DNA from: a virus
Direction: 5' to 3' (one strand)
Length of the DNA: 64,000 nt
IMG/VR virus record: IMGVR_UViG_3300030101_003608
Span: 46,526 to 110,525 of that record
Shown here: one piece after another, positions 2,394-55,720 of the stretch
Numbering within the stretch: position 1 is the stretch's first letter
Layout of the letters: each line of letters opens with the position of its first letter
Program-made: the position numbers and the translations under genes
Notes under the pieces: model-generated
Seen by the model: the letters and a program-made list of their open reading frames with translations, nothing else
Told to the model about the DNA's origin: nothing
The model's database searches: none

Positions 2394-5300
2394 TATCTCT
2401 GACTTAATTGGGATTTAGTATTTACAATCTTTAGGATCATGTTTGTATTTCGTGAATCATCTCTAATTAACTTAACAAAGTTTAAGTAATGTCTAAACTT
2501 CTTTCTTTGTAGTAATGGTTTACTATAGTTAAGATTAAAGTCATTTAGATTTTTTACATAACCATTAGGTTCAGTAATCCATATATTATTTTGAGGATAA
2601 CTTCCTAAAAGTTCAGTTGTACCTGGAATTAATGGTCCTGTAGGAGGATAATCAGATCCTTGAGGAAACTCTCCTCTATCTTTAGTAATATCCCAGAACT
2701 GATTAAATCTATATTTGTTTTCTTCTTTTGAAAATAATATATCAAATGAAGCAAGGTTAGATCCTAGTTTAGGATATGTTTGAGATAAAGCTACATTATT
2801 CTTTGGGAATATATTTAAGTTAAGAATTCCTGAAGCCTGTTCTGAGTTACTAATTATAGCTTTATTAAAATTATAATCTAATACATGGAACTGATCGCTA
2901 CATAGTTGAATATCTTTTCTATAACATTCAAGAACATATTCAATACTTCTCATAGTGGTAACTGTTTGTCCCGTTGGTACAGGTATCTCTATTTCAAAAG
3001 GATATTGCACACCGTAAAAATTACAGTAATCATTACAAGCACTATTATGTTTCCATATACCATCTTTTTTAGTAGTAAGGAAATGTCCTTTACTTGGTAT
3101 GTATAAACCAGGGTTCCAATCATGGAATGAAATCCATAATTTATTTTTAGGATCATAACTTACTGTCCAAGACGCATCTTTAAAAAATCTAGAATCTCCT
3201 AATGTTATAGTATAATTAACTTGATCTTTTAATTTAAATCTATTTGTACTTGGGTCAAAATCAAGAATTCCTACAAATTCTTTTTTAACCATGAAGTCTC
3301 TTTTAGAAAAGTACAAAACAGAATTTGAGTTATCATAAGTTGCAGAACAGCCTATACCCGCTACAGGATTATTTGTATGAGGATAATTTGGAAACTCTTC
3401 TAAAAGCTTAAATGGTAAAAATTTATCAAACCACCACTTCATTCCAGTTTGAGATATCTCTTCTAGTTTTCCTGTATAAGCAAAGATTTTACCTTGCTCT
3501 TGTGATATAAAGTATATACCTGCTGGAGTAGATATTACAGAATATATATCTTGGCAAGAACCATATTGATAAGGTTGATCTGATACTACTACATTTTGAG
3601 GCGTAGTAGCAAATAATCCACCATCACCTATAGTAGCTTTAACTCCTAAATAAGTTTCTCTTTGATCTACACCTTGGAATACCAGAGGACTGTTATTTTT
3701 AAATGTAACTAACAAACCTGTTTTACCAAATGTCTTAACGGTATTTAATTCACTTTTAAAATCTACTTTATTCAAAGCCAAGAACATTAACCATGAATCA
3801 TAAGCTTCATGCTCTTGTAAAGGTTTTGAATATTGAATTCTATTTGGAAAACTTGTATAACACAGTTCAGCTGTTTCTGGATCATAATTAGTTCCTTGTA
3901 AAGCTCCATTATTGTAGTACTGACTAAATAAGAATCTTGACGCACTTAAAGAATAATCATATCTAAAAAAATTACCTTTGGTAAATATAGCAGGGTTCTG
4001 ACTAAACAATTGTTGCAGATCTGTAAACAACCATTTGTTATAAGACTTTTCTTCAGCACTTCTACCTGCAAATCTCCAGTCTGTAATTACTTCACTTTCT
4101 ACAAAGAAGTCTTTTATACCACTTACTGATGTATAGAAATATGAATTCTTTACACCTATTAAACCAGGATATCTAGTAACAAAATTAAATGCTTCATCAT
4201 AACCAAAAGGTGGAGGAGCGTCTAAGTTGTAATAAGATCTTGGAAATAATCCTTCACCTACACCAGAAGAACCCGCTTGAAATATATTTAGTAAGTTATC
4301 AAAATTTAGATCACTTATATCCCATCTATTGCTGTTAACCATAAATCTAGGTTCAGGAATCATTTGTCTTCTAAAATAATTAAACCTAGTATTATCTGGT
4401 TTATCATAAAGCCATTCATAGAAGAAAGGCATCATAGTTTTTTCAGTATGTCTTGTGACATAAGTATCTCCTCCAAAAAATGCAGGAGTGGTTTTTATTT
4501 TAGTATGTTCAAAACTTAAACTACCACAAACATTAGGAAGAGAGGATATTTGTATAGTATTAGGATCTGGCAAGTTTTCTCTAAAATCTATTCTTTGTTC
4601 ATGAGGAGTTGTCATAACTTGAATGATAGATCCTAGTTGTCTATATAAATTTCTAAATGTATATTTTAAACCTACATAATGACTTGCAATTATTGTTTCA
4701 AACTCATTTGATTTATTGTTTTCTCTAAAAGCTTCTCCATCTAAAAATAAATCTTTCCAACCTAAACCTATATCTTTTTGAACTAAACCTAAAGTCATAG
4801 AGGATTGGTCAACACTTTTAATAAACTGAAAGTTTATACCAGCAACACCGGTAGTAAGAAAGTTTGGACCATCTGGATTTTCATCATCATCTGTAGTTCT
4901 AAGTACAACTAATTCAGGTCTTAATAAATTATTTATTCTATAATTTACCTCACCATTATATGTTGAATAAGGAAAACTATAATTATAATTTTGAGCTTGA
5001 TATGTAGGAAACTGAAATACCTGATCTTTTACATATGATCCCACAGGTAATCTAAATCTATTTACATTATCCCAGTTTTCATTACTGTTTGAAGGGCGAA
5101 ATTTAGTATACTCACCATGACCAATTCCTTGAAGAGCATACTGCCTAGTTCTAACTATTGAATATAATACATCTACAGTATCTTTAGCTCCTTCTGCAAA
5201 ATAATATACAGACTGACCTAACATAGTGAACCCAGGAATAAGGTTACCTATAGCATTTGCGTTTGTAAAAATTGCAGGTAATAACTGGTATGCTGTGTAA

Positions 5301-22752: not shown

Positions 22753-24372
22753 TTAGAATGATCCTCCAGTAACTGGGTTTCTCATAACAATCTTCAATAC
22801 CTTAGTTGGGTCTTTTACCCATACAGCTGGCATTGTTTGAGACATCATTACTCTGTATCCATTGAATTGACCAGAAGACTGGAATCCTTGGCTACGTCCC
22901 ATGTAGTCCATTGTACCATTTTGATACCACCACTTAAGTTGATTATCCCAAGATAACTTCAATAAGAAGATGTTATCGTTAGTATTATCAGTGATGTCAA
23001 AGATAATGAATGAATAAGAAGATAATGGGAATCCATCAATAATTGGGTTCTCAATATCATTAGTATTAACATTATCAAATGCTGGGTTAAGTACAAACTT
23101 AACGTTAGCTAAGAAAGGAATCACATAAGAAGTGTAAGCAAAACCAAAGTTAAGATCCATTCCTTGACCAGTGATTGCACCTATATCAGCAGCTTGAATT
23201 ACAAGACCTGATGCTACAGCTTCACGTTTGATAGCTTCATTAACCATTCTCATTCCACCCATACCAGTTTGTACAATCAATTGTCTACTTGGATCTGGAC
23301 CTTGGAATTCAACTTTTCCATTAAAGAAGTTATAAATCTCAGAACGGAATAAGTCAAGGTTAAAGTTATTCTTATTGTATACTCTTTTGAAAGAGTTATC
23401 AAGTTGTTGCCAAAGACCTACAGATAATCTTAAATCATCTGGTCCGTCTTGTCTAACTCTACCACCTTGTCCCCACATTAGGTAAGACTCAATATCATTT
23501 GATACCTTAGTTAAGTGAGCAGCTTCCATGTTAGTAAGGAAAGATCTAGAAAGATCACCATTATCAAATGCTTTCTTTACACCATCTTTACCCATTTTTG
23601 ATACCATATCTTCTAATGAAGTTATAGAACTATCCATGCTATCTCCTGAAGATCTCCAGATCTCAGTTACAGGAATAGTACCATCAGCATTCATTCCACC
23701 TTTGATCATAAGATCAGCTCTAGAAGAAACTGAGTAGTGAACGTGAGCTTCTGCTCCTCCTACATAGTTGTAGAATTCACGGAAACCTGTTCCTGTTGTG
23801 ATGTCAGAAAATCTTTCACCATACTCACCTCTAGCAGAACCTTTTCTAAAGTATTTAGTTCCATTTGCTAAAAATGCAGAATCAAAAGTTGCAGAGTTAT
23901 TATTATTAACCATCTGAACTGTGTAGATAAACCCATCACCTGTAGGAAGAATATCCTCATCAGTAATGTAAAGTTCAGCTCCATTGTATTTGTCATAAGT
24001 GATGATATCACCATGTCCAAATTCTCTGCAGCTCATCTTGATACGGAAAGTAGTACCATCAGCACCTCTAGTATTTGCCAAAGTTGGATCAATATCCTCA
24101 ATTATATAAGGAAGATCTCTTGACACAGGTGTTTGCCACTTATACTCTCCACGAGCATTATCTACTTCAATTACATTTTTGCCACCAAAGCTAGACATTT
24201 GATAAAGAGGCATTTCAACTTTCTGAGACATTGCCCATAAGTCCACTGGACCTAAATCCATTGGTTCTGCATCCTTCAACATGTTAACCAGGTGGTAAGA
24301 GTCTACGTGTGAACTTGCGCTGTACGCTGTATCCCGTAGAAAGATACCATTGTTTAAAACTGGAGTTGCCAT
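22753..24372 (-). CDS. Major capsid protein (crAss-like HK97 fold)
   Basis: 539 aa; DSYHL, EYKW, GLWQQL, TGMGG..NEAI motifs; follows portal/scaffold and is followed by a strong terminator. Confidence 0.85.
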   Translation of the reverse strand: MATPVLNNGIFLRDTAYSASSHVDSYHLVNMLKDAEPMDLGPVDLWAMSQKVEMPLYQMSSFGGKNVIEVDNARGEYKWQTPVSRDLPYIIEDIDPTLANTRGADGTTFRIKMSCREFGHGDIITYDKYNGAELYITDEDILPTGDGFIYTVQMVNNNNSATFDSAFLANGTKYFRKGSARGEYGERFSDITTGTGFREFYNYVGGAEAHVHYSVSSRADLMIKGGMNADGTIPVTEIWRSSGDSMDSSITSLEDMVSKMGKDGVKKAFDNGDLSRSFLTNMEAAHLTKVSNDIESYLMWGQGGRVRQDGPDDLRLSVGLWQQLDNSFKRVYNKNNFNLDLFRSEIYNFFNGKVEFQGPDPSRQLIVQTGMGGMRMVNEAIKREAVASGLVIQAADIGAITGQGMDLNFGFAYTSYVIPFLANVKFVLNPAFDNVNTNDIENPIIDGFPLSSYSFIIFDITDNTNDNIFLLKLSWDNQLKWWYQNGTMDYMGRSQGFQSSGQFNGYRVMMSQTMPAVWVKDPTKVLKIVMRNPVTGGSF

Positions 24373-28837: not shown

Positions 28838-31054
28838 TTATTTAATATTTTTAAAGGCAGATCTTTTTATAGATTTGCCATTTATTTTCTTTCTTTTTCT
28901 ACCCATATGTCTGAACGGACTACTATTTAATTTAAACAAATTTTCTGACTTTTGCAACTTTTTGGCTGCATCATCTCTTATGATTTGCTTAGTGTAACCT
29001 CTATTAGATTCTTGTATTCTCATAAAAGATACAAGTGCTACAAATGATACTAATCTATCCACATTGACTCCGTCTGCATATTCTTGCATTTCTTTTATAA
29101 GCATTGGATCTGGAATTCTTTCTATTCCATAAGTTGTTTTGAGAACAGTTCCATCTTCTGCTGTTTCTTGATCAAGCTCTTCTCTTACAAACTCTATCCC
29201 ATAACTTAACAAGTGTGACTTAAATAATGTTCCTGTATTTTTCCATCCATATTCTTGGAATACATTCTTATTAGCACCTAAGTCTTTTAAAAACATTATT
29301 TGACTTTTAGGTACAAGATACTTTTGCTTCTTTCTGCTTATCATGTAGTTAATAAATAATGATATGTTATTCTCTATTACTGTCCACGCATTATACCATT
29401 CTATTATAAGCTCTAATCTTTGGTGTGTTTGCTTTATGTCATCAAACCTTCCGCACCAAGCAGCTACAATCTTACTTTGTTCAATATAAGTTTCTGTTTC
29501 AGTACCGGTTACTTTAGTAACCTCTATAGAGTTTTTCATTACATATATAGAACATAGTGAATCAGATGTTGTAGTTTTACCTTCAGCTACAGGGTCAATA
29601 GAAGCATAGTAGGTTCCAAAGTCTGGTTTTTCTTTATTTGGTCTTTCCCATACCACCAAACAGCCTGTTTTGTCTTCAGTCTTTTTATTTACAGGAAAAT
29701 CTTTTATAGGTTGTTTGTTACTTTTTACAACGCTAGGTTTACCATTAGCATCTGCAGATATATCTAGAAACTCATAGCCATATTCTTTTTCTTCTATTCT
29801 TCTTGCTTGTGCAGAAAGAAGATGTGTAGGAAATACAGAAACAGATCTATTATCAAACGCTTCTTTAATATTTCTTGGATGCTGAGATATTCTCAATTGA
29901 TAATCTTCTGGAGCTAGATCTCTTTTCCAATCATCAAATTGTTTTTGTAAAGCTGCAGTAGCTTCTTCTACTTTAGAATTACCATACTCATCTATGTGCG
30001 GAGGCATTGACCATTGTTCAGGAATAAATAAACCTGACATACCTTCAGTACCTTTATGATCAATCAAATTAGTTTCTACAGCATAAACATCTTTAGAAGT
30101 TGGATTAAGTATCATATCCTTAAGTGGATTACATTGTGACAAATCACCCACAGATCCTGCTGCTATAAATAATCCAGTAGTAGTAAGCCCTGATCTCATT
30201 GCTGGTCTCATATACTCATATGTCTTATCCATCTTAGGTGCAATTCCTGCCTCCTCATGAAAGAAGTATTTAACTGGACCCCCTACACCATTTGTTGGAT
30301 CTTTCTCAAATGACATGCCTTGTATAGTTCCTTTAAGCCCTACTTCTGTTTTTCTGTTACCTTTCCTAACTTCAATCTTTTGTTGCCACATCATTACCTT
30401 ACTAGGATTCATTGGTCTATACCATGCAGTATGTTCATTTAAGAATGCAGCATACTCATCTAAGAACTTCCAAGATCCTTTCTCATTGATGTAATCTTTA
30501 AGACTAGCGCCTATTTTTAATGTTACCCCCGATTCAAACCATTGCTGATTTATAAGCTTTGCCATATGATAATAAGAAGAAGCTATCTGACGTTTCTTTA
30601 ATATAGCAACATGTTTATAATTTAACTCTGCTAGTACTTCATATAATGCCATGTGATATTGAGCATCTCTAATATCAGCAAATCCAAATCTTTGTATTTC
30701 TTTATTAAAGATTGGTAAAAAGTTTAGCCACATATAATAGTCTCTAGCTATGTACCAAGTTTTATCTTTTGTTTTAAATATTACTCCTTTTCTACATTTC
30801 TTTTTTTCACTTTCCCAGTAATTAATAAAATCTCTTGATTTAAATGGAGCTGCACAATAAAATCCTTGTTTGTTAAATCTACTAGCTTCTGCATTAAATT
30901 CTGCAGAAGTTTTATCAAAGTCATACTGACCAGGTTCTTTAAATAAATCTCTTACATAAGTAGCAAAGTCTTCTCTACTGTCAAAGTCTGTACTGGTCCA
31001 TGTACCATTGTCCCATGTAGGAATATCCTGATATATCTCTGTATCATTGGTCAT
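28838..31054 (-). CDS. Terminase large subunit
   Basis: LKKRQIASSY (Walker A-like), FFHEEAG (Walker B), ASIDPV nuclease Asp, NVDRLV. Confidence 0.9.
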   Translation of the reverse strand: MTNDTEIYQDIPTWDNGTWTSTDFDSREDFATYVRDLFKEPGQYDFDKTSAEFNAEASRFNKQGFYCAAPFKSRDFINYWESEKKKCRKGVIFKTKDKTWYIARDYYMWLNFLPIFNKEIQRFGFADIRDAQYHMALYEVLAELNYKHVAILKKRQIASSYYHMAKLINQQWFESGVTLKIGASLKDYINEKGSWKFLDEYAAFLNEHTAWYRPMNPSKVMMWQQKIEVRKGNRKTEVGLKGTIQGMSFEKDPTNGVGGPVKYFFHEEAGIAPKMDKTYEYMRPAMRSGLTTTGLFIAAGSVGDLSQCNPLKDMILNPTSKDVYAVETNLIDHKGTEGMSGLFIPEQWSMPPHIDEYGNSKVEEATAALQKQFDDWKRDLAPEDYQLRISQHPRNIKEAFDNRSVSVFPTHLLSAQARRIEEKEYGYEFLDISADANGKPSVVKSNKQPIKDFPVNKKTEDKTGCLVVWERPNKEKPDFGTYYASIDPVAEGKTTTSDSLCSIYVMKNSIEVTKVTGTETETYIEQSKIVAAWCGRFDDIKQTHQRLELIIEWYNAWTVIENNISLFINYMISRKKQKYLVPKSQIMFLKDLGANKNVFQEYGWKNTGTLFKSHLLSYGIEFVREELDQETAEDGTVLKTTYGIERIPDPMLIKEMQEYADGVNVDRLVSFVALVSFMRIQESNRGYTKQIIRDDAAKKLQKSENLFKLNSSPFRHMGRKRKKINGKSIKRSAFKNIK

Positions 31055-43413: not shown

Positions 43414-44136
43414 TTAATTTAAAAGATTTATATGACCTATGATTTGCTTTTTATTACCCATTACATCACTATATACTACGACATATACATATGCTCCGCT
43501 TAAACTATTACCCGACCAGCCCTCTTCTAAGCTGTATGTTTCAAAAACTATATTGTTCCATCTATCATAAATAACCCAATGAAAATCTACTATTCCGTTT
43601 CCTATAGCTTTAATTACATCATTAGAGTTATCATCATTTGGTGTAAAAGCATTAGGTATGTACAGAGACACATCACATTCTATACCCATCTTAATATACC
43701 CACTATAAACTTTGTAAGGTACATTACCCCCGCATACACTAGATGAAAGAACAGACATGTCTAGATCTAACTCATCACAACTTTCTTTTGTAACAGCTTG
43801 TACACAAAATGAACGTATGCAAGATCCAGTAAAATCCCAATCACCAGGAAAGAAACTAAAATACCACCCATTATCTAACCAGACCCAGTCACCCTCTGTA
43901 GTAACAGAACAATTAGTAGGAGTATCTATAGGCATGATAGTATCCCATCCAGATCCTGGGATAACCACCATAGACTGAAGCATGCACTCATGACCCCCGA
44001 ACCAATCAGCTATCTCATAACACAAAGTAACAGTATCCCCAGAGTAATAATACTCAGAATAAGGATCTACAGAACTACTCTCTGTTTGACCAAAGCAAGT
44101 TAAAGGCACAATAAGCAGTAAGAGTCTTAGCAACAT
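43414..44136 (-). CDS. Secreted protein with T9SS type B (gliding motility-associated) C-terminal domain
   Basis: N-terminal signal peptide; C-terminal LYIPNAFTPNDDNSND..IYDRW..VFE..GW.G..GAYVY..GHINLL. Confidence 0.85.
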   Translation of the reverse strand: MLLRLLLLIVPLTCFGQTESSSVDPYSEYYYSGDTVTLCYEIADWFGGHECMLQSMVVIPGSGWDTIMPIDTPTNCSVTTEGDWVWLDNGWYFSFFPGDWDFTGSCIRSFCVQAVTKESCDELDLDMSVLSSSVCGGNVPYKVYSGYIKMGIECDVSLYIPNAFTPNDDNSNDVIKAIGNGIVDFHWVIYDRWNNIVFETYSLEEGWSGNSLSGAYVYVVVYSDVMGNKKQIIGHINLLN

Positions 44137-45537: not shown

Positions 45538-46083
45538 GTGGAAAATCCAAATTTAACATTTTATGCTACGTTTTACAAAACTACCATAACAGGTAAGCAT
45601 CTCTTCAAAGTTCACGGAACTGATGAAGAAATTAACTCTTATGTTGAACATCTCAAAAAGAGAGGTGCAACAAAGATTTCATATTTAACCCAAAGTGACC
45701 AAAAGACACTTGTGTTAAATGAGAATGGACAAAAAGTTCCTTTGCACTTTTCACAGGATAAACCTGTTTCAAAGTTGCTAAATGAACGTTACCCTATGGT
45801 TACCACCCAAACAGGTGTTAACAAGGGGTCCATTAATCCTGACCTTAGATTAATCAAATTCGTTAATGATGCCATTAAAGAATATGGACCATCTAACTTA
45901 GACTTCTGCATATCAGAAGCAAGAACAAGTCTTGCTCATGCTATTGCACAAGACTATCAGGATACTGAAGAGTCTTCTCCTTCCCAAGAAGAAGAATCTC
46001 CAGTTACTGAAGAATCTACTGTTGATACTAAAAGTATCATCAATAAGATTGCTTCAGGTACAAAGAAGAAGAGCAAGTCTTAA
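45538..46083 (+). CDS. Early hypothetical protein (GTG start)
   Basis: 181 aa with S/E-rich linker and basic tail. Confidence 0.65.
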   Translation: MENPNLTFYATFYKTTITGKHLFKVHGTDEEINSYVEHLKKRGATKISYLTQSDQKTLVLNENGQKVPLHFSQDKPVSKLLNERYPMVTTQTGVNKGSINPDLRLIKFVNDAIKEYGPSNLDFCISEARTSLAHAIAQDYQDTEESSPSQEEESPVTEESTVDTKSIINKIASGTKKKSKS

Positions 46084-46095
46084 TCTTTGTGAATC

Positions 46096-46132
46096 AACAA
46101 GGGATCATAGATCCTTTGTTGTTTCTTTTTTC
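46096..46132 (+). terminator. Intrinsic terminator
   Basis: AACAAGGGATC/GATCCTTTGTT stem plus U-rich tail. Confidence 0.65.
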
Positions 46133-46149
46133 TTTAAAACCCTCTTTTT

Positions 46150-46174
46150 GCTAGCCATCAACTTACGTTGATGT
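46150..46174 (+). promoter_or_regulatory. Early promoter-like motif copy 6 (no ORF downstream)
   Basis: GCTAGCC ATCAACTTACG TTGATGT; same 11-nt spacing. Confidence 0.55.
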
Positions 46175-46258
46175 CATTTTGCAATACCAAAACCACAGCC
46201 AAAAGTGGATTGCAAATTTTATTTGGCTTGCTTTTTAACTAAAAGCAAAGACATCAGC
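46167..46258 (+). ncRNA. Candidate ~92-nt three-way-junction small RNA
   Basis: Closing stem GTTGATGTC/GACATCAGC; arms TTTGCAAT/ATTGCAAA (with CCAC/GTGG) and TTGCTTTT/AAAAGCAA; starts where motif copy 6 would initiate. Confidence 0.5.
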
Positions 46259-46609
46259 ACAAATAGTTGCAAAACTGAAAACTGAAAGCTAGTTATCAAT
46301 GTTTTGTAATTGTTTTGCGGAAATACTTGTGTGTTTTAATCTTTATAAGATAGTACAACATATACCTATATCATTGGTTGTAAGTATAAATTATTATTTC
46401 TCTATAGTATATAGTATATATAATATTTTATATAGCTAACTTTGTTGTAAAACAGATGTTAGTTTACCTTATACAGTATTAGTACTCTCTCTATATAGAG
46501 GAAGAGCATATGAGTTTCCCGATTTAATTAATAAGGTTAATCCATTAAGGGATTATTAAATGATATCCGTATGTGAAGATGCCTTATTATTATATTACTG
46601 CTTAAGTAG

Positions 46610-47015
46610 GCGTTGGTAGGTCTCGCAGGGTTGATCACCTAAATTCTACCACTAAAGACATAGGAAGTTCCTTTATACTATAACAGACAAAAGAATTACT
46701 TCCCGTCTTTATTACACCAAAAAATGGTATCCTAGGGAAAGACCTGGGTTGAGGTAGCGCCTCTGGATGGTGGATTAAAACCAAAGTGTCAGTTCCTGTT
46801 TTAAACCTAAAACAGAGAAGAGATGCTATTGTACAGAGTTTGAAAGTAAATCAGACAATTATACTGACCGTCTTACTGTGGTCTCTGTTGTGATAGTGTG
46901 TCGTGGGAGTTAAATGGCTGAAAATCCCGTTTTAGAGTAGGCCGAGAGTAGAGAAGATATAAAGTGTTCCTTTTACACAACTAAAAGATATTACACTTCA
47001 TCTTCTTTACTCTTA
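46610..47015 (+). ncRNA. Candidate structured RNA / long leader of the 47045 gene
   Basis: ORF-free, GC-enriched, at least seven hairpins, including two covarying copies of one motif (46653-46711, 46945-47013). Confidence 0.5.
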
Positions 47016-47044
47016 TTTTTTCACTTATTAATACTTATTGAATT

Positions 47045-48844
47045 ATGGCAAATTTTGCTGAACTTCGTTTATTTGGTCAAGCACTGAGAAAGACCAATGC
47101 TTCTGACACAGTTAACTCTGTACTTGTTAGAACTTGTGCATCTAAAGGATATGTTATGCGTATTGGATGTGATCCTGAAAGAGTAATGTCTTATATGCAG
47201 TCGTTACCAAACAATTATAATTCTACTTTCTATAAATCATTTAATGATGTTATTAATAGAAGTGAAGAAGCATGGTGGGTAGACCAGTGTATGCATTATG
47301 CATCTACATATGGTACAGGTCATACAGATACACCTTATGTTCCTAATAATAATCCTAGTCTAATTAACTTTTCTGAATGTAAGGTTATTGATCCTATTAC
47401 AATGGAAGAGCTTCATGATAAAATCCAAAATATGGCAGATTCAGGTATTGCTCTTAAGAATGATACTCTGAATGATATCTTCGAGTTAATTGAAGAGTTT
47501 GATATGTCATTTTGGACTGATAATATTAAGAACCGTGAGTTCTTGATTAGATATCATATTGCAAAAGGTATACCTTTTAAGAATGTAATTGAATCATTAC
47601 AAGCTATTAACTTTATCATTACTGGTAGCACTTGTATTGTTAAAAGTCATGATGCAATGAATGCGTATAGTTGTTCTAGTTCTTGGGATAGGTTTTCTAA
47701 TATCAAGGCATGTTTTTATTCACATTCTTTAGAAGAATGGGCAAGTATCTTCAATAGATATAAGCCCTTGTTTCTTGCTTTGAGAAATAGTGAGTTGAGA
47801 CCTATGATTAACAAGATATCTAAGTTATCTAAGAAACATCACGTTCCTACTGTTATGCCTATGAGTACAAAGTTCTTGACTCCTGAATATGTTAACAATG
47901 ATAAGTTAACTTTTCAGTCAAGACTTTGGTTACGTAAGTATGAGGATAGATCTTTATTTGAACTTGTAAAGTATTACAATGCTATACAAAAAAGAAGAAC
48001 AGGAAAGTTTATTGATACAATTAATATCAGAAATGGTAAAAGTTGGGTTAAAAAGAGTTCTTGGGAGCTTAATGAAGATAACTTGGATAAACTTAACAGT
48101 CAGGTTAGACGTTCAATATCTCATAAGATGAGAGAGAAATTACAAGGTAAAACTTTAAATCTCCCTTCTGGCTTAGGCATTACTCTTCCTACATCAGAAA
48201 AGAATTTCATTGGTACATTACCTATTGGTTCTTATATTGATGTTATGCCTCAAGATAATCTCATTGTTGGGATTTATTGGAAAGGTGAGGATGGTGCAAG
48301 CGATCTTGACTTGTCATTTACTGATATAGATGGTAAAACTATCTCTTGGTGTAATTCATACACTGATGCGGGTAATAACATTGTCTATTCAGGTGATATG
48401 ACATCTGCTGATCCTGAAGCTTCAGAGTATTTATTGTTCCGTAATGATATGCCTAATGGTATATTTATGTGTAACAATTATTCTGGTGCATCAGAAGCAA
48501 AGTATACATTTATTGTTGCTAGACTTCCTGAAGGTGAGAGTTTTAATACAAATCATATGGTACATCCAGATGATATTATATTTCAAACTCCTATGGTTAT
48601 GAGAAGTAATCAAATGTCTATGGCTATCCATATTGGTAGTAGATTTATCTTTACTGATAGAGCTATTGGCAATGGTAGAGTTGCTAGAGCAGGTGTTACT
48701 ACTCGTGACCTAATTCAGAGTCAAATTGAGATGGCAGATATGTCATTGACATTGAATGAATTTATAGATCATACTGAACTTGATGGTGAAGTAGTAGATC
48801 TAACTACTGATGACAAGTCAGCTTTAATTAGCTTATTGTCATAA
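47045..48844 (+). CDS. Large protein with helical N-terminal region and TerD-like C-terminal domain
   Basis: NSTFYKSF..QCMHYASTYG N-terminus; C-terminal GIYW..DLDLS..YSGDMTSA...ASEY resembles TerD-fold Ca-binding motifs. Confidence 0.6.
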   Translation: MANFAELRLFGQALRKTNASDTVNSVLVRTCASKGYVMRIGCDPERVMSYMQSLPNNYNSTFYKSFNDVINRSEEAWWVDQCMHYASTYGTGHTDTPYVPNNNPSLINFSECKVIDPITMEELHDKIQNMADSGIALKNDTLNDIFELIEEFDMSFWTDNIKNREFLIRYHIAKGIPFKNVIESLQAINFIITGSTCIVKSHDAMNAYSCSSSWDRFSNIKACFYSHSLEEWASIFNRYKPLFLALRNSELRPMINKISKLSKKHHVPTVMPMSTKFLTPEYVNNDKLTFQSRLWLRKYEDRSLFELVKYYNAIQKRRTGKFIDTINIRNGKSWVKKSSWELNEDNLDKLNSQVRRSISHKMREKLQGKTLNLPSGLGITLPTSEKNFIGTLPIGSYIDVMPQDNLIVGIYWKGEDGASDLDLSFTDIDGKTISWCNSYTDAGNNIVYSGDMTSADPEASEYLLFRNDMPNGIFMCNNYSGASEAKYTFIVARLPEGESFNTNHMVHPDDIIFQTPMVMRSNQMSMAIHIGSRFIFTDRAIGNGRVARAGVTTRDLIQSQIEMADMSLTLNEFIDHTELDGEVVDLTTDDKSALISLLS

Positions 48845-54877: not shown

Positions 54878-55720
54878 ATGAGTGGGGTAATTAAGCGTCA
54901 AGTTACAAAGACCTTAGTTACAAAAGACAATAACAATAGTGCTAACTGTATAGCGCCAAATCTTATCTATGGATGTTTTGGTGGTTGTGTAGATACCTAT
55001 TGTTATATGTCTAGGTATAATGGTAAGAGAGTTTTTGTAAATGAAAATGTAGATGATATCTTTAACTCTGTTGTAGAATGGGAAAAAGGTTTTACTAAGG
55101 TTCCTGATCAGCAGGATCCAGTATACACTATGGTAGATATTGCATGTAACACAGATTTAGTACTAATGCAGCGTTATTTACCTGAGCCATTGATAGATTA
55201 TCTTAAAAGATATGATAATCATCCTACCTTAAATTCAACTATGGCAACTAAGTATCCTAGTTTGTTGAAACTTAATGTCAAAAAGTTCAACAAAAAACCA
55301 AGGGTAAGAGTTAGTCTTATGCCGCAAAGATTTGCAGATGTATTAGAACCTAAGATGCAAAAGGTTGCAAGAAGGATCCCTGAGATTAATAGACTTAAGG
55401 ACCTTGGGTGGGAAGTGCATGTTAACTATAGCCCTCTTGTTTTCTACAAAAAATGGAAACAAGACTACAGTGAGTTGTTTAAGATGGTAAAAGATATAGC
55501 AGGAGTAAATAAATGTGAGGTAATTGCATTAACTAATCATGCTAATCAAATGAAAAGATCTTCTCATGAGGCTAGGGAATTAATGAGCCTTAGTTATGAA
55601 GTTAAAAATAAATCAGGTGTAATGAGGTATCCTCTTAAACATAAAACAAGATTACTAGAAGAGTTTAAAGATTTATATTCTGAATATTTTGATTTAGAAA
55701 CAATTAGATATATATTTTAA
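54878..55720 (+). CDS. Spore photoproduct lyase-like radical SAM protein
   Basis: GCFGGCVDTYCYM, DIACNTD, ATKY, RVRVSLMP, GWEVHVNYSP, MRY and terminal IRYIF resemble the SPL family. Confidence 0.7.
   Translation: MSGVIKRQVTKTLVTKDNNNSANCIAPNLIYGCFGGCVDTYCYMSRYNGKRVFVNENVDDIFNSVVEWEKGFTKVPDQQDPVYTMVDIACNTDLVLMQRYLPEPLIDYLKRYDNHPTLNSTMATKYPSLLKLNVKKFNKKPRVRVSLMPQRFADVLEPKMQKVARRIPEINRLKDLGWEVHVNYSPLVFYKKWKQDYSELFKMVKDIAGVNKCEVIALTNHANQMKRSSHEARELMSLSYEVKNKSGVMRYPLKHKTRLLEEFKDLYSEYFDLETIRYIF

What the first reader, a model, noticed from the sequence alone, without database searches (positions are those of the whole stretch)
46653..47013. Two copies of one RNA hairpin motif with compensatory changes upstream of the TerD-like gene
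Copy A (46653-46711): TAAAGAC-ATA-GGAAGT-[TCCTTTATAC..AAAAGAATT]-ACTTCC-C-GTCTTTA. Copy B (46945-47013): AGAGTAGAGAAGAT-ATA-AAGTGT-[TCCTTTTACAC..AAAAGATATT]-ACACTT-C-ATCTTCTTTACTCT. Stem sequences differ but pairing is kept, while the AUA/C internal loop and the GU-UCCUUU...AAAAGA..UU-AC loop are conserved. This is the pattern expected of a protein-binding RNA element. Copy B ends in a U-rich run ~30 nt before the ATG, suggesting autoregulation or attenuation (inference).
Basis: seen in the sequence. Interest (0 to 1): 0.8.

Follow-up and report, generated by a model that had tools for sequence, protein, structure and literature searches.

The report
Handle RNAs of a TerD-fold protein
The two hairpins are real copies of a widespread, uncatalogued folded-RNA "handle" that occurs almost only beside one uncharacterised ~600-residue protein, in phages (often among tRNA genes) and in flavobacteria beside the RNA ligase RtcB. 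The pair is probably an undescribed RNA-protein particle that works like Ro60 with its Y RNAs.

Summary
Hairpins A (46653-46711) and B (46945-47013) share one architecture: outer stem, AUA/C internal loop, 6-bp stem ending in GU...AC, then a UC/A-rich internal loop.

A covariance model built from 45 copies finds only A and B in this 110-kb phage. It finds 67 copies in 35 related sources, all on the gene's strand. In five near-complete phage genomes, 15 of 16 hits sit beside homologues of the 599-aa gene.

The reverse test also holds. Loci fetched by an RNA-only pattern carry the gene when the model validates them (14 of 16 bacterial loci) and never otherwise (0 of 64).

The stems covary strongly. 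The four free stem positions pair in 88% of cells, against 52% with shuffled partners.

In relatives the loop of the handle carries YrlA-like tRNA mimics. The protein has a helical domain plus a TerD fold, with no Pfam or NCBIfam family and no detectable TROVE homology.

In Chryseobacterium and Tenacibaculum the pair lies in RtcB RNA-repair operons. In cyanophages S-CRM01 and S-CBWM1 it lies in tRNA arrays.

Best reading: these are Y-RNA-like ncRNAs bound by the neighbouring protein. Binding has not been shown. B may also act as a terminator just before the gene; attenuation is at most a secondary role.

This scan has reported the same system on other DNA, and I found no paper describing it.

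The parts
46614..46651 (+). Hairpin just before copy A (UGGUAG ... UUGAUCACC ... CUACCA). It is part of the conserved RNA block.
   Evidence: Conserved by sequence upstream of distant homologues L014, L015 and L017 (nhmmer). A similar UGAUCAC element sits inside a handle loop in L039.
46653..46711 (+). Handle copy A: outer stem, AUA/C internal loop, 6-bp stem GGAAGU/ACUUCC, UC/AAUU internal loop, short apical hairpin.
   Evidence: Fold. Model R1 scores it 65 bits, E 3e-15. Conserved in L002 and L004.
46779..46890 (+). Module M, a rearranged handle. P2 is GUCAGU 46788-46793 with ACUGAC 46863-46868, and the bulged C is 46869. The GRC strand of the outer stem (AGAC 46853-46856) lies inside the loop and pairs with GUCU 46870-46873, giving a pseudoknot topology. 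A further pairing joins ACAGAG 46833-46838 to CUCUGU 46883-46888.
   Evidence: The sequence block is conserved in L007/L011, L008/L012, L009, L035, L039 and L014/L015/L017. The stems covary between lineages: P2 is GTCAGT/ACTGAC, ACCAGT/ACTGGT or ACCACT/AGTGGT; P1 is AGAC/GTCT, AGGC/GCCT, TAGC/GCTA or GGAC/GTCC. The pseudoknot reading is my inference and was not scored column by column.
46945..47013 (+). Handle copy B: 14-bp outer stem, AUA/C internal loop, 6-bp stem AAGUGU/ACACUU, UC/AUAUU internal loop, apical hairpin CUUUUA/UAAAAG.
   Evidence: Fold (z -6.95). R1 scores it 54 bits, E 3e-12.
47014..47022 (+). U-rich run (UUAUUUUUU) directly after copy B. Together with B it makes a terminator-like element 22 nt before the ATG.
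   Evidence: Read from the sequence. The gene-proximal handle is followed by a U run in many relatives. The simple terminator scan did not call it because the loop is too long.
47045..48844 (+). Gene for the 599-aa partner candidate: alpha-helical domain (about 120-378) plus a TerD-fold beta-sandwich (399-560).
   Evidence: 1339 homologues, none with a Pfam domain. AF2 pLDDT 79. TerD structures 2qz7 and 2kxt match at Z 11.8 and 10.6. No Pfam, PHROG or NCBIfam family.
46314..46344 (+). Conserved promoter-like element TTTG-N19-TAATCTTT, in the form of the Bacteroidota -33/-7 consensus. It could drive the RNA block and the gene.
   Evidence: Invariant in L002 and L004 and conserved in L007. The consensus is from my own knowledge; function was not tested.

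Best explanation
A and B are two 'handle' modules of a family of small structured RNAs. The family is encoded next to, and on the same strand as, genes for an uncharacterised helical + TerD-fold protein of about 600 residues.

Each module has four parts:
- a basal stem (GRC/GYC);
- a 3x1 internal loop (AUA opposite C);
- a freely covarying 6-bp stem closed by G-C and U-A;
- a conserved asymmetric internal loop (UC opposite an A-rich run ending in U), followed by a variable apical 'cargo'.

The cargo is a short hairpin in A and B, a large multi-stem domain in M, and a tRNA-like domain in relatives.

I propose that the neighbouring protein binds the conserved handle, so that RNA and protein form a particle that works like Ro60 with Y RNAs. 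The handle would dock the protein, and the cargo would act as an adaptor or decoy in tRNA/RNA damage control.

In this phage A, M and B are probably made as one transcript from a conserved upstream promoter-like element. B plus its U run ends or limits that transcript 31 nt before the protein's start codon.

Shown here: the motif, its covariation, its strand, and its genetic linkage and gene context.
Inferred: binding, RNA processing, and the biological role.
For: 1. The motif is real and is RNA on the + strand.
- Folds.
- Covariation.
- G-U pairs outnumber A-C pairs 12 to 3 in the stems.
- All 67 model hits in 35 sources are on the gene's strand.

2. Linkage, protein to RNA.
- In this 110-kb genome only A and B score.
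- In five 110-174-kb phage genomes, 15 of 16 hits cluster beside the gene.
- In protein-anchored loci, strict copies lie 47 upstream, 12 downstream and 0 elsewhere.
- Cultured cyanophages S-CRM01 (g174, 29% identity) and S-CBWM1 carry the handle beside the homologue.

3. Linkage, RNA to protein.
- Loci fetched by an RNA-only pattern carry the gene in 14 of 16 model-positive bacterial loci and 22 of 31 model-positive viral loci.
- None of the 64 bacterial or 21 viral model-negative loci carries it.

4. Y-RNA-like anatomy.
- The tRNA-like core of Rfam YrlA matches inside handle loops, below Rfam's threshold: L037 40.8 bits, L018 31.9 and 31.6 bits, S-CRM01 35.9 bits over the full model.
- Known Y RNAs likewise lie near and co-oriented with Ro60 and mimic tRNA (PMC4201824).

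5. RNA-repair and tRNA context.
- Chryseobacterium: RtcB, three handles, the homologue, RlaP, an ATP-grasp gene, with a divergent WYL regulator.
- Tenacibaculum: RtcB, an RF-1-domain protein, handles, the homologue, an RNase T-like exonuclease.
- Phages: the pair sits inside tRNA arrays.

6. Conservation. The 364-nt A-to-B block is 97.2% identical to L004, whose gene DNA is 86.9% identical.
Against: - No experiment or transcript data.
- The protein has no recognised RNA-binding domain.
- Similarity of its helical domain to Ro60 is weak: Z 5.6-6.5 with rmsd 5.5-6.9.
- The Pfam TROVE model finds nothing in this genome.
- A profile comparison with canonical Ro60 from Chryseobacterium gives probability 0.09%.
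- The handle lacks the GNCGAA motif of YrlA.
- A and B in this window carry no tRNA-like cargo.
- This phage has no RtcB or RlaP.
- Tight linkage would also arise if the hairpins were cis-regulatory or processing signals for this gene.
Confidence: 0.6

Rival explanations
1. Cis-acting leader or attenuator. The hairpins are operator sites in the mRNA leader. The protein binds them to control termination at B, or translation of its own gene. No separate small RNA function exists.
For: - In about half of the loci the gene-proximal handle lies 27-68 nt before the start codon, often followed by a U run.
- B plus UUAUUUUUU ends 31 nt before the ATG.
- I saw no separate promoter between B and the ATG.
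Against: - Copies also lie downstream of the gene: 12 of 59 overall, and seven downstream in L018.
- In S-CBWM1 one copy is separated from the gene by tRNAs and ORFs.
- Copies come in tandem sets of 2-7.
- Loops carry tRNA-like domains.
- In Chryseobacterium the handles sit between RtcB and the gene inside an operon.
Confidence: 0.15
2. Processing or punctuation signals. The hairpins are recognition sites or stabilising end-structures for a host RNase or for termination in polycistronic tRNA-type transcripts. The neighbouring protein does not bind them specifically.
For: - They lie between tRNAs and tRNA-like RNAs in arrays.
- Some are followed by U runs.
Against: - A host-RNase signal should appear throughout tRNA arrays and in genomes that lack the gene. 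Instead, model hits cluster beside the gene and are absent elsewhere in six phage genomes.
- The handle is conserved across phages of Bacteroidota and of Cyanobacteria, which have different host RNases.
Confidence: 0.1
3. Protein-independent decoys. The handle RNAs and their tRNA-like cargo soak up host tRNA-targeting defence nucleases or tRNA-modifying enzymes on their own. The neighbouring gene is only co-inherited.
For: - tRNA mimicry in relatives.
- Placement in phage tRNA arrays.
Against: - It does not explain why the conserved part is the non-tRNA handle.
- It does not explain why handles without tRNA-like cargo (A and B here) are kept.
- It does not explain the strict two-way linkage with one protein family, including in bacterial RtcB operons.
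Confidence: 0.08
4. DNA-level element: origin or iteron hairpins, or a mobile hairpin-ended repeat in the strand-switch region.
For: - The block lies in a 0.9-kb ORF-free region at the GC-skew switch, next to AT-rich palindromes.
- The edges of conservation coincide with the hairpins.
Against: - Orientation is strictly that of the gene (67 of 67).
- G-U pairs outnumber A-C pairs.
- The motif recurs inside bacterial operons and tRNA arrays that are not origins.
- There are no other copies in the genome, as a mobile repeat would leave.
Confidence: 0.03

Closest known systems
Ro60 (Rsr; TROVE + vWA) with bacterial and phage Y RNAs (YrlA/YrlB, Yrn1; phiLo Yrl1/Yrl2), for example the Salmonella rsr-yrlBA-rtcBA operon (PMC4201824, PMC12135203, PMC7790460)
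   Same: - Several small RNAs are encoded within about 1 kb of, and co-oriented with, one protein gene of 500-600 residues.
- Each RNA has a bulged basal stem plus a variable module that in some members mimics tRNA. The YrlA core matches at 32-41 bits.
- The pair occurs in both bacteria and phages.
- It is associated with RtcB RNA-repair genes.
- The protein is a helical domain followed by a second globular domain.
   Different: - The protein has a TerD fold where Ro60 has vWA.
- There is no TROVE match by Pfam or by hhalign (probability 0.09%). Fold similarity of the helical part is weak (Z 5.6-6.5).
- The handle carries GU-UCCU...A-rich-U-AC and an AUA/C loop instead of the GNCGAA / GGUCCGA Ro-binding motif.
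- No RNA reaches the YrlA gathering score (69 bits).
- Canonical Ro60 co-exists elsewhere in two of the five bacterial genomes checked that carry this system (both Chryseobacterium).
TerD-family proteins of tellurite-resistance (Ter) stress operons (PDB 2qz7, 2kxt)
   Same: Residues 399-560 adopt the TerD beta-sandwich (Z 11.8 and 10.6, 136 residues aligned, rmsd 3.0). They keep acidic DLDLS / SGD..E-type motifs.
   Different: - No Pfam TerD hit.
- The domain is fused to a 380-residue helical domain.
- The genomic context is RNA repair and tRNA arrays with dedicated RNAs, not Ter operons.
Phage nut/boxB or coat-protein operator hairpins (protein-binding hairpins in phage leaders)
   Same: Repeated hairpins with conserved loop or bulge nucleotides and free stems, near the start of a transcription unit.
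   Different: - Handles are much larger and bipartite.
- They occur up- and downstream of one specific gene.
- They carry cargo domains.
- They are shared with bacterial RNA-repair operons.

Membership tests
Y RNA / YrlA (Rfam RF02553) | Reaches the Rfam gathering score (69 bits) | tested here: not met
   The window has no Rfam hit at the gathering score, or at E<=10 for YrlA. Relatives reach only 31.6-40.8 bits, and only for the tRNA-like core.
Y RNA / YrlA (Rfam RF02553) | Basal stem carries the Ro/Rsr-binding motif GNCGAA (GGUCCGA in animals) | tested here: not met
   The handle consensus is GRC-AUA-NNNNGU-UCCU...U-ACNNNN-C-GYC. In the S-CRM01 alignment to YrlA only the tRNA-like core aligns well. 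The motif definition is from PMC4201824.
Y RNA / YrlA (Rfam RF02553) | Encoded near, and on the same strand as, a Ro60/TROVE gene | tested here: not met
   The neighbouring gene is not TROVE by Pfam or by hhalign. The nearness and shared strand hold for a different protein family.
Y RNA / YrlA (Rfam RF02553) | tRNA-like domain (T arm, D arm, acceptor-like stem) | tested here: not met
   A and B have 25-29-nt loops without T- or D-arm features, and ARAGORN finds nothing. The feature is met in relatives only (L018, L037, S-CRM01).
Ro60 / TROVE protein family | TROVE HEAT-repeat ring detectable by sequence profile | tested here: not met
   Pfam PF05731 has no match in the genome at E<=10, while the control genomes ring. 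25 family members show no TROVE hit at E<=1. hhalign against Chryseobacterium Ro60 gives probability 0.09%.
Ro60 / TROVE protein family | Ro60-like fold of the helical domain | tested here: inconclusive
   9l5y (phiLo Ro60) matches at Z 6.5 and 5.6 over 197-213 residues, and 2nvo at Z 4.9 over 222 residues. These are the only hits spanning the whole domain, but they fall in the range common for helical repeats.
Ro60 / TROVE protein family | C-terminal vWA domain with MIDAS | tested here: not met
   The C-terminal domain is a TerD-fold beta-sandwich.
TerD family | TerD beta-sandwich fold | tested here: met
   2qz7_B Z 11.8 and 2kxt Z 10.6, each with 136 residues aligned at rmsd 3.0. Foldseek top hit 3ibz, probability 1.00.
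TerD family | Match to the Pfam TerD sequence model | tested here: not met
   No Pfam family for the protein or for 24 relatives.
Intrinsic terminator (copy B) | Stable hairpin followed directly by a U run | tested here: inconclusive
   B is stable at -25.2 kcal/mol and is followed by UUAUUUUUU. The stem is A/U-rich and the loop long, so the consensus scan does not call it. No transcript ends are available.
Cis-regulatory 5' leader | Always 5' of the regulated gene in the same transcript | tested here: not met
   12 of 59 strict copies lie downstream of the gene. L018 has all seven downstream. In S-CBWM1 one copy lies 2.5 kb upstream among tRNAs.

The most novel reading that the evidence does not exclude
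A second class of 'handle-and-cargo' ribonucleoprotein, evolutionarily independent of Ro60/Y RNA. A helical + TerD-fold protein recognises the three-dimensional shape of a bulged handle. The rearranged, pseudoknotted handle in module M would be recognised in the same way. The protein then presents interchangeable RNA cargoes, including tRNA mimics, to RNA-repair enzymes such as RtcB. In phages the particle would protect or mend tRNAs attacked by host anticodon nucleases.
Probability: 0.4. Interest if true: 0.85.

Novelty: new variant of a known kind. Interest (0 to 1): 0.78.

Why it matters
Ro60/Y RNA is so far the one well-known bacterial and phage particle in which a protein is paired with dedicated tRNA-mimicking small RNAs beside RNA-repair genes. 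A second, unrelated-looking protein with its own handle RNA is spread over Bacteroidota, their phages and cyanophages. That spread would show this design is a general solution for RNA damage control.

It would also give a function to a protein family of more than 1300 members that has no annotation. It would explain unannotated gaps in phage tRNA arrays, for example around S-CRM01 g174.

The system can be tested directly in cultured organisms: Chryseobacterium, Tenacibaculum, and cyanophages S-CRM01 and S-CBWM1.

Tried and rejected
**Searches that found nothing**
- tRNA scan of the window: none.
- Rfam at gathering score and at E<=10 over 46000-47200: nothing relevant.
- blastn of the locus against 50,697 phage records: no match.
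- Pfam, PHROGs and NCBIfam for the protein: none.
- PDB sequence profile search: none.
- Foldseek against PDB: only TerD near threshold.
- ESM Atlas on the N-terminal part: uninformative.
- TROVE homology: the Pfam search of the genome and hhalign against two Chryseobacterium Ro60 proteins were both negative. The Ro60 profile had only two sequences, so this comparison is weak.
- RtcB and RlaP in this phage: absent.

**Approaches that did not work**
- A loose GTTCC-plus-4-bp scan is not specific: 8 hits against 5-17 in shuffles.
- The RNA-only pattern scan of bacterial genomes returns mostly chance hits. About 500 are expected, and 64 of the 80 loci tested were not validated by the model.
- A column-wise pseudoknot count on module M was dropped. 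The 6-7-nt linker shifts the alignment, so the evidence for M rests.

**Readings rejected**
- K-turn: there is no tandem G-A.
- Mobile hairpin-ended element, and origin hairpins: see rivals.

Complex prediction was not used because it takes no RNA.

Full report
**Setting**

The window is the right-hand 64 kb of a 110.5-kb, 97%-complete IMG/VR phage record.
- Structural genes lie on the minus strand (major head protein 22753-24372, large terminase 28838-31054).
- Replication genes lie on the plus strand from about 44 kb.
- A CHU_C type IX secretion domain in 43414-44136 points to a Bacteroidota host.
- The finding lies in a 0.87-kb ORF-free stretch (46172-47044) at the strand and GC-skew switch, directly before a 599-aa ORF (47045-48844).

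**The observation**

- Copy A: TAAAGAC / AUA / GGAAGU / loop / ACUUCC / C / GUCUUUA.
- Copy B: a 14-bp outer stem / AUA / AAGUGU / loop / ACACUU / C / outer stem.

Both are the minimum-energy folds: A -12.5 kcal/mol with z -3.4, B -25.2 kcal/mol with z -6.95. Inside the 6-bp stem both have 5' UC and a 3' A-rich run ending in U around a short inner helix (CUUU/AAAG in A, CUUUUA/UAAAAG in B). No tRNA and no Rfam family matches here.

**Relatives found through the protein**

The 599-aa protein has 1339 homologues, none with a Pfam domain or an informative name. A profile of 25 of them fetched 42 viral loci.

The two closest loci show the A-to-B block conserved. It is 97.2% identical to L004 and 97.8% to L002. 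The gene DNA is 86.9% and 96.6% identical respectively. The segment upstream of A carries a roughly 230-nt insertion in both.

Iterated nhmmer then found the block next to homologues only 32-44% identical, always on the gene's strand. In L018/L040 it lies downstream of the gene.

Reading those hits showed one recurring unit: (A)GRC - AUA (or AAA/ACA/UAA) - NNNNGU - UCCU(A/U)U ... A-rich-U - ACNNNN - C - GYC(U). It occurs in 2-7 tandem copies per locus.

**Covariation**

Two tests support the pairing.
- Anchor-only test. I required only the conserved sequence anchors and no pairing. The four free stem positions pair in 87.6% of cells, against 52% (maximum 59% in 1000 trials) when 3' partners are shuffled. 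They use 43 different stem words, and 67 of 87 instances are fully paired. Most of the imperfect ones are clearly false anchors.
- Alignment test. On a MAFFT alignment of 45 copies (A3), 95.2% of cells pair and 10 of 12 pairs change on both sides. The covariation score is 0.78 against 0.26 shuffled (0 of 500 shuffles reach it). Slid controls give 35-48% pairing. These 45 copies were chosen with a pairing filter, so the anchor-only test is the independent one.

Even the 'invariant' G-C closing pair flips to C-G in one lineage (L008/L009: CU...AG). G-U pairs outnumber A-C pairs 12 to 3. Together with the strict orientation, this points to an RNA on the plus strand.

**Linkage tested both ways**

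*From protein to RNA, with covariance model R1:*
- Only A and B score in the whole 110-kb genome, at 65 and 54 bits. The next hit has E 0.33.
- There are 67 hits in 35 sources, all on the gene's strand.
- In five other near-complete phage genomes (110-174 kb), 15 of 16 hits cluster beside the gene.
- In protein-anchored loci, strict copies lie 47 upstream, 12 downstream, 0 inside the gene and 0 elsewhere in the 3-kb flanks.
- Two cultured cyanophages carry the pair. S-CRM01 g174 (29% identity) has handles just upstream and one just downstream. S-CBWM1 gp22 has one 12 nt upstream and one among tRNAs.

*From RNA to protein:*
- An RNA-only pattern (one stem variant) fetched 60 viral and more than 120 bacterial loci. 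Many are expected by chance.
- R1 validated 31 of 52 new viral loci and 16 of the 80 bacterial loci I tested.
- tblastn finds the protein directly beside the hairpins in 22 of the 31 viral loci and 14 of the 16 bacterial loci. Most of the rest sit at locus edges.
- tblastn finds the protein in none of the model-negative loci.

**What the RNAs look like in relatives**

In L018, seven modules follow the gene. Two of them carry, inside the handle, a T arm, an acceptor-like hairpin and a D arm that match the core of Rfam YrlA at 31.9 and 31.6 bits. A third carries a T-arm-like hairpin.
- L037 has one such module at 40.8 bits.
- S-CRM01 has a handle whose cargo matches the full YrlA model at 35.9 bits.

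All are below Rfam's threshold of 69 bits. In the alignments only the tRNA-like core fits. The basal stem differs from the GNCGAA Ro-binding motif described for YrlA (PMC4201824).

So the family shares the design of Y RNAs, a protein-docking stem plus a variable and often tRNA-like module. It has its own handle.

**The third module in this window**

Between A and B, module M keeps the GU-UCCU start and the AC...C-GYC end (GUCAGU 46788-46793 with ACUGAC 46863-46868, C 46869, GUCU 46870-46873). The partner of GUCU (AGAC 46853-46856) lies inside the loop, 6 nt before ACUGAC. The same two helices would therefore form with a permuted, pseudoknot-like connectivity.

Both helices covary among eight lineages. 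So does a further pairing, ACAGAG 46833-46838 with CUCUGU 46883-46888, which is AUAGAG/CUCUAU in L035, AUAAAG/CUUUAU in L007 and ACAGAU/AUCUGU in L014.

This reading is my inference from these short motifs. A column-wise count was not possible.

**The protein**

AlphaFold2 with 25 sequences gives mean pLDDT 79.
- Residues 399-560 are a TerD-fold sandwich: 2qz7 at Z 11.8 and 2kxt at Z 10.6.
- For the helical domain (about 122-378), the only structures aligning across its whole length are Ro60 proteins. Phage phiLo 9l5y gives Z 6.5 and 5.6 over 197-213 residues. Deinococcus 2nvo gives Z 4.9 over 222 residues. Xenopus 1yvp also appears. These scores are in the range that helical repeats reach by chance.
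- By sequence there is no link to Ro60. The Pfam TROVE model finds nothing in the genome, 25 family members give no hit, and hhalign against canonical Ro60 from Chryseobacterium gives probability 0.09%.
- Of five bacterial genomes carrying this system, two (both Chryseobacterium) also encode a canonical Ro60 elsewhere. The two systems can therefore co-exist.

**Gene context**

- Chryseobacterium: RtcB, three handles, the homologue, RlaP (an RNA-ligase-associated nucleotidyltransferase; bioRxiv 10.64898/2025.12.29.696909), a 213-aa protein and an R2K ATP-grasp gene. A WYL regulator is divergent. RtcB is adjacent in at least ten Chryseobacterium loci.
- Tenacibaculum: RtcB, an RF-1-domain protein, handles, the homologue and an RNase T-like exonuclease.
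- One Bacteroidales MAG carries the pair alone.
- Phages: the pair often sits inside tRNA arrays.
- This phage has no RtcB, RlaP or TROVE gene. Like phage phiLo's Ro60 (PMC12135203), the particle would have to work with host enzymes.

**Interpretation**

The conserved nucleotides sit in two internal loops of an otherwise free-sequence helix. The handle is exclusive to one gene family across very distant phages and bacteria. The cargo is interchangeable. The best fit is a set of small RNAs docked by the neighbouring protein, working like Ro60/Y RNA in RNA or tRNA damage control (confidence about 0.6).

Within a genome the 5' loop words tend to be alike: UCCUAUUAA in L014, UCCUUUGAAAAAC in L018, UCCUUU in this phage. 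This fits either co-evolution with a cognate protein or recent duplication.

In this phage A, M and B probably belong to one transcript. It would start either from the conserved TTTG-N19-TAATCTTT element (46314-46344) or from the early-type motif at 46151-46171. B and its U run would close it 31 nt before the ATG.

**Novelty**

Rfam, Pfam, PHROGs and NCBIfam have nothing for either partner. Full-text searches found no paper describing them.

After reaching this reading I looked up the scan's earlier notes. Several earlier follow-ups on other genomes describe the same handle RNA and TerD-fold protein pair and reach the same comparison with Ro60/Y RNA. Within this scan it is a repeat discovery. 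Against the literature it appears undescribed.

Noticed in passing
window 46310-46525: A second conserved non-coding block upstream of the RNAs. It holds a promoter-like TTTG-N19-TAATCTTT, AT-rich overlapping palindromes (TATAGTATATAGTATATATAATATTTTATATAG) and CTCTCTATATAGAGG. It is conserved in L002, L004 and L007, where it lies about 1.2 kb before the gene. It sits at the GC-skew switch, so it could be a promoter region or an origin.
   Followed up: partly
window 44331, 44573, 44843, 46151 (+): Four exact copies of CTAGCC-N11-TTGA (0.5 expected by chance). Three precede small early ORFs. The fourth follows the terminator at 46095-46121 and precedes no ORF.
   Followed up: partly
window 46510-46650 vs L002:2300-2600 and L004: The relatives carry an insertion of about 230 nt of structured-looking sequence between the upstream conserved block and copy A. 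This phage lacks it.
   Followed up: no
L049 (Synechococcus phage S-CRM01) 3794-3940, minus strand: The annotated 48-aa ORF g173c lies antisense over two or three handle hairpins. It is probably not a gene. The unannotated gaps around g174 hold five or six handle RNAs, one with a full tRNA-like cargo (3620-3740).
   Followed up: partly
L029 80-260, L035 2880-2990, L039 2885-2990: After the last handle these phages share another conserved hairpin (CCAACUUCCCAAGGGUUGG) and a UACUGAGUACUGAGGGGCA element just before the gene. A small ORF of about 90 aa separates module M from the handles in L035 and L039.
   Followed up: no
L032 3530-3806: A tmRNA match above Rfam's threshold (52 bits against 47) lies just downstream of the homologue in a phage contig, amid tRNA-like handle cargoes.
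   Followed up: no
window 43414-44136 (-): A phage-encoded 240-aa protein with a CHU_C type IX secretion C-terminal domain (E 8.5e-10). It is the first gene of the minus-strand arm.
   Followed up: no
window 54878-55720 (+): A 280-aa protein with a spore-photoproduct-lyase-like domain (PF20903, E 8e-16) in the replication module.
   Followed up: no
G006 and G010 (Chryseobacterium), L231-L234: These genomes carry both a canonical TROVE/Ro60 gene and, elsewhere, the TerD-fold protein with its handles in an RtcB operon. I did not check whether the Ro60 gene has its own Y RNAs.
   Followed up: partly
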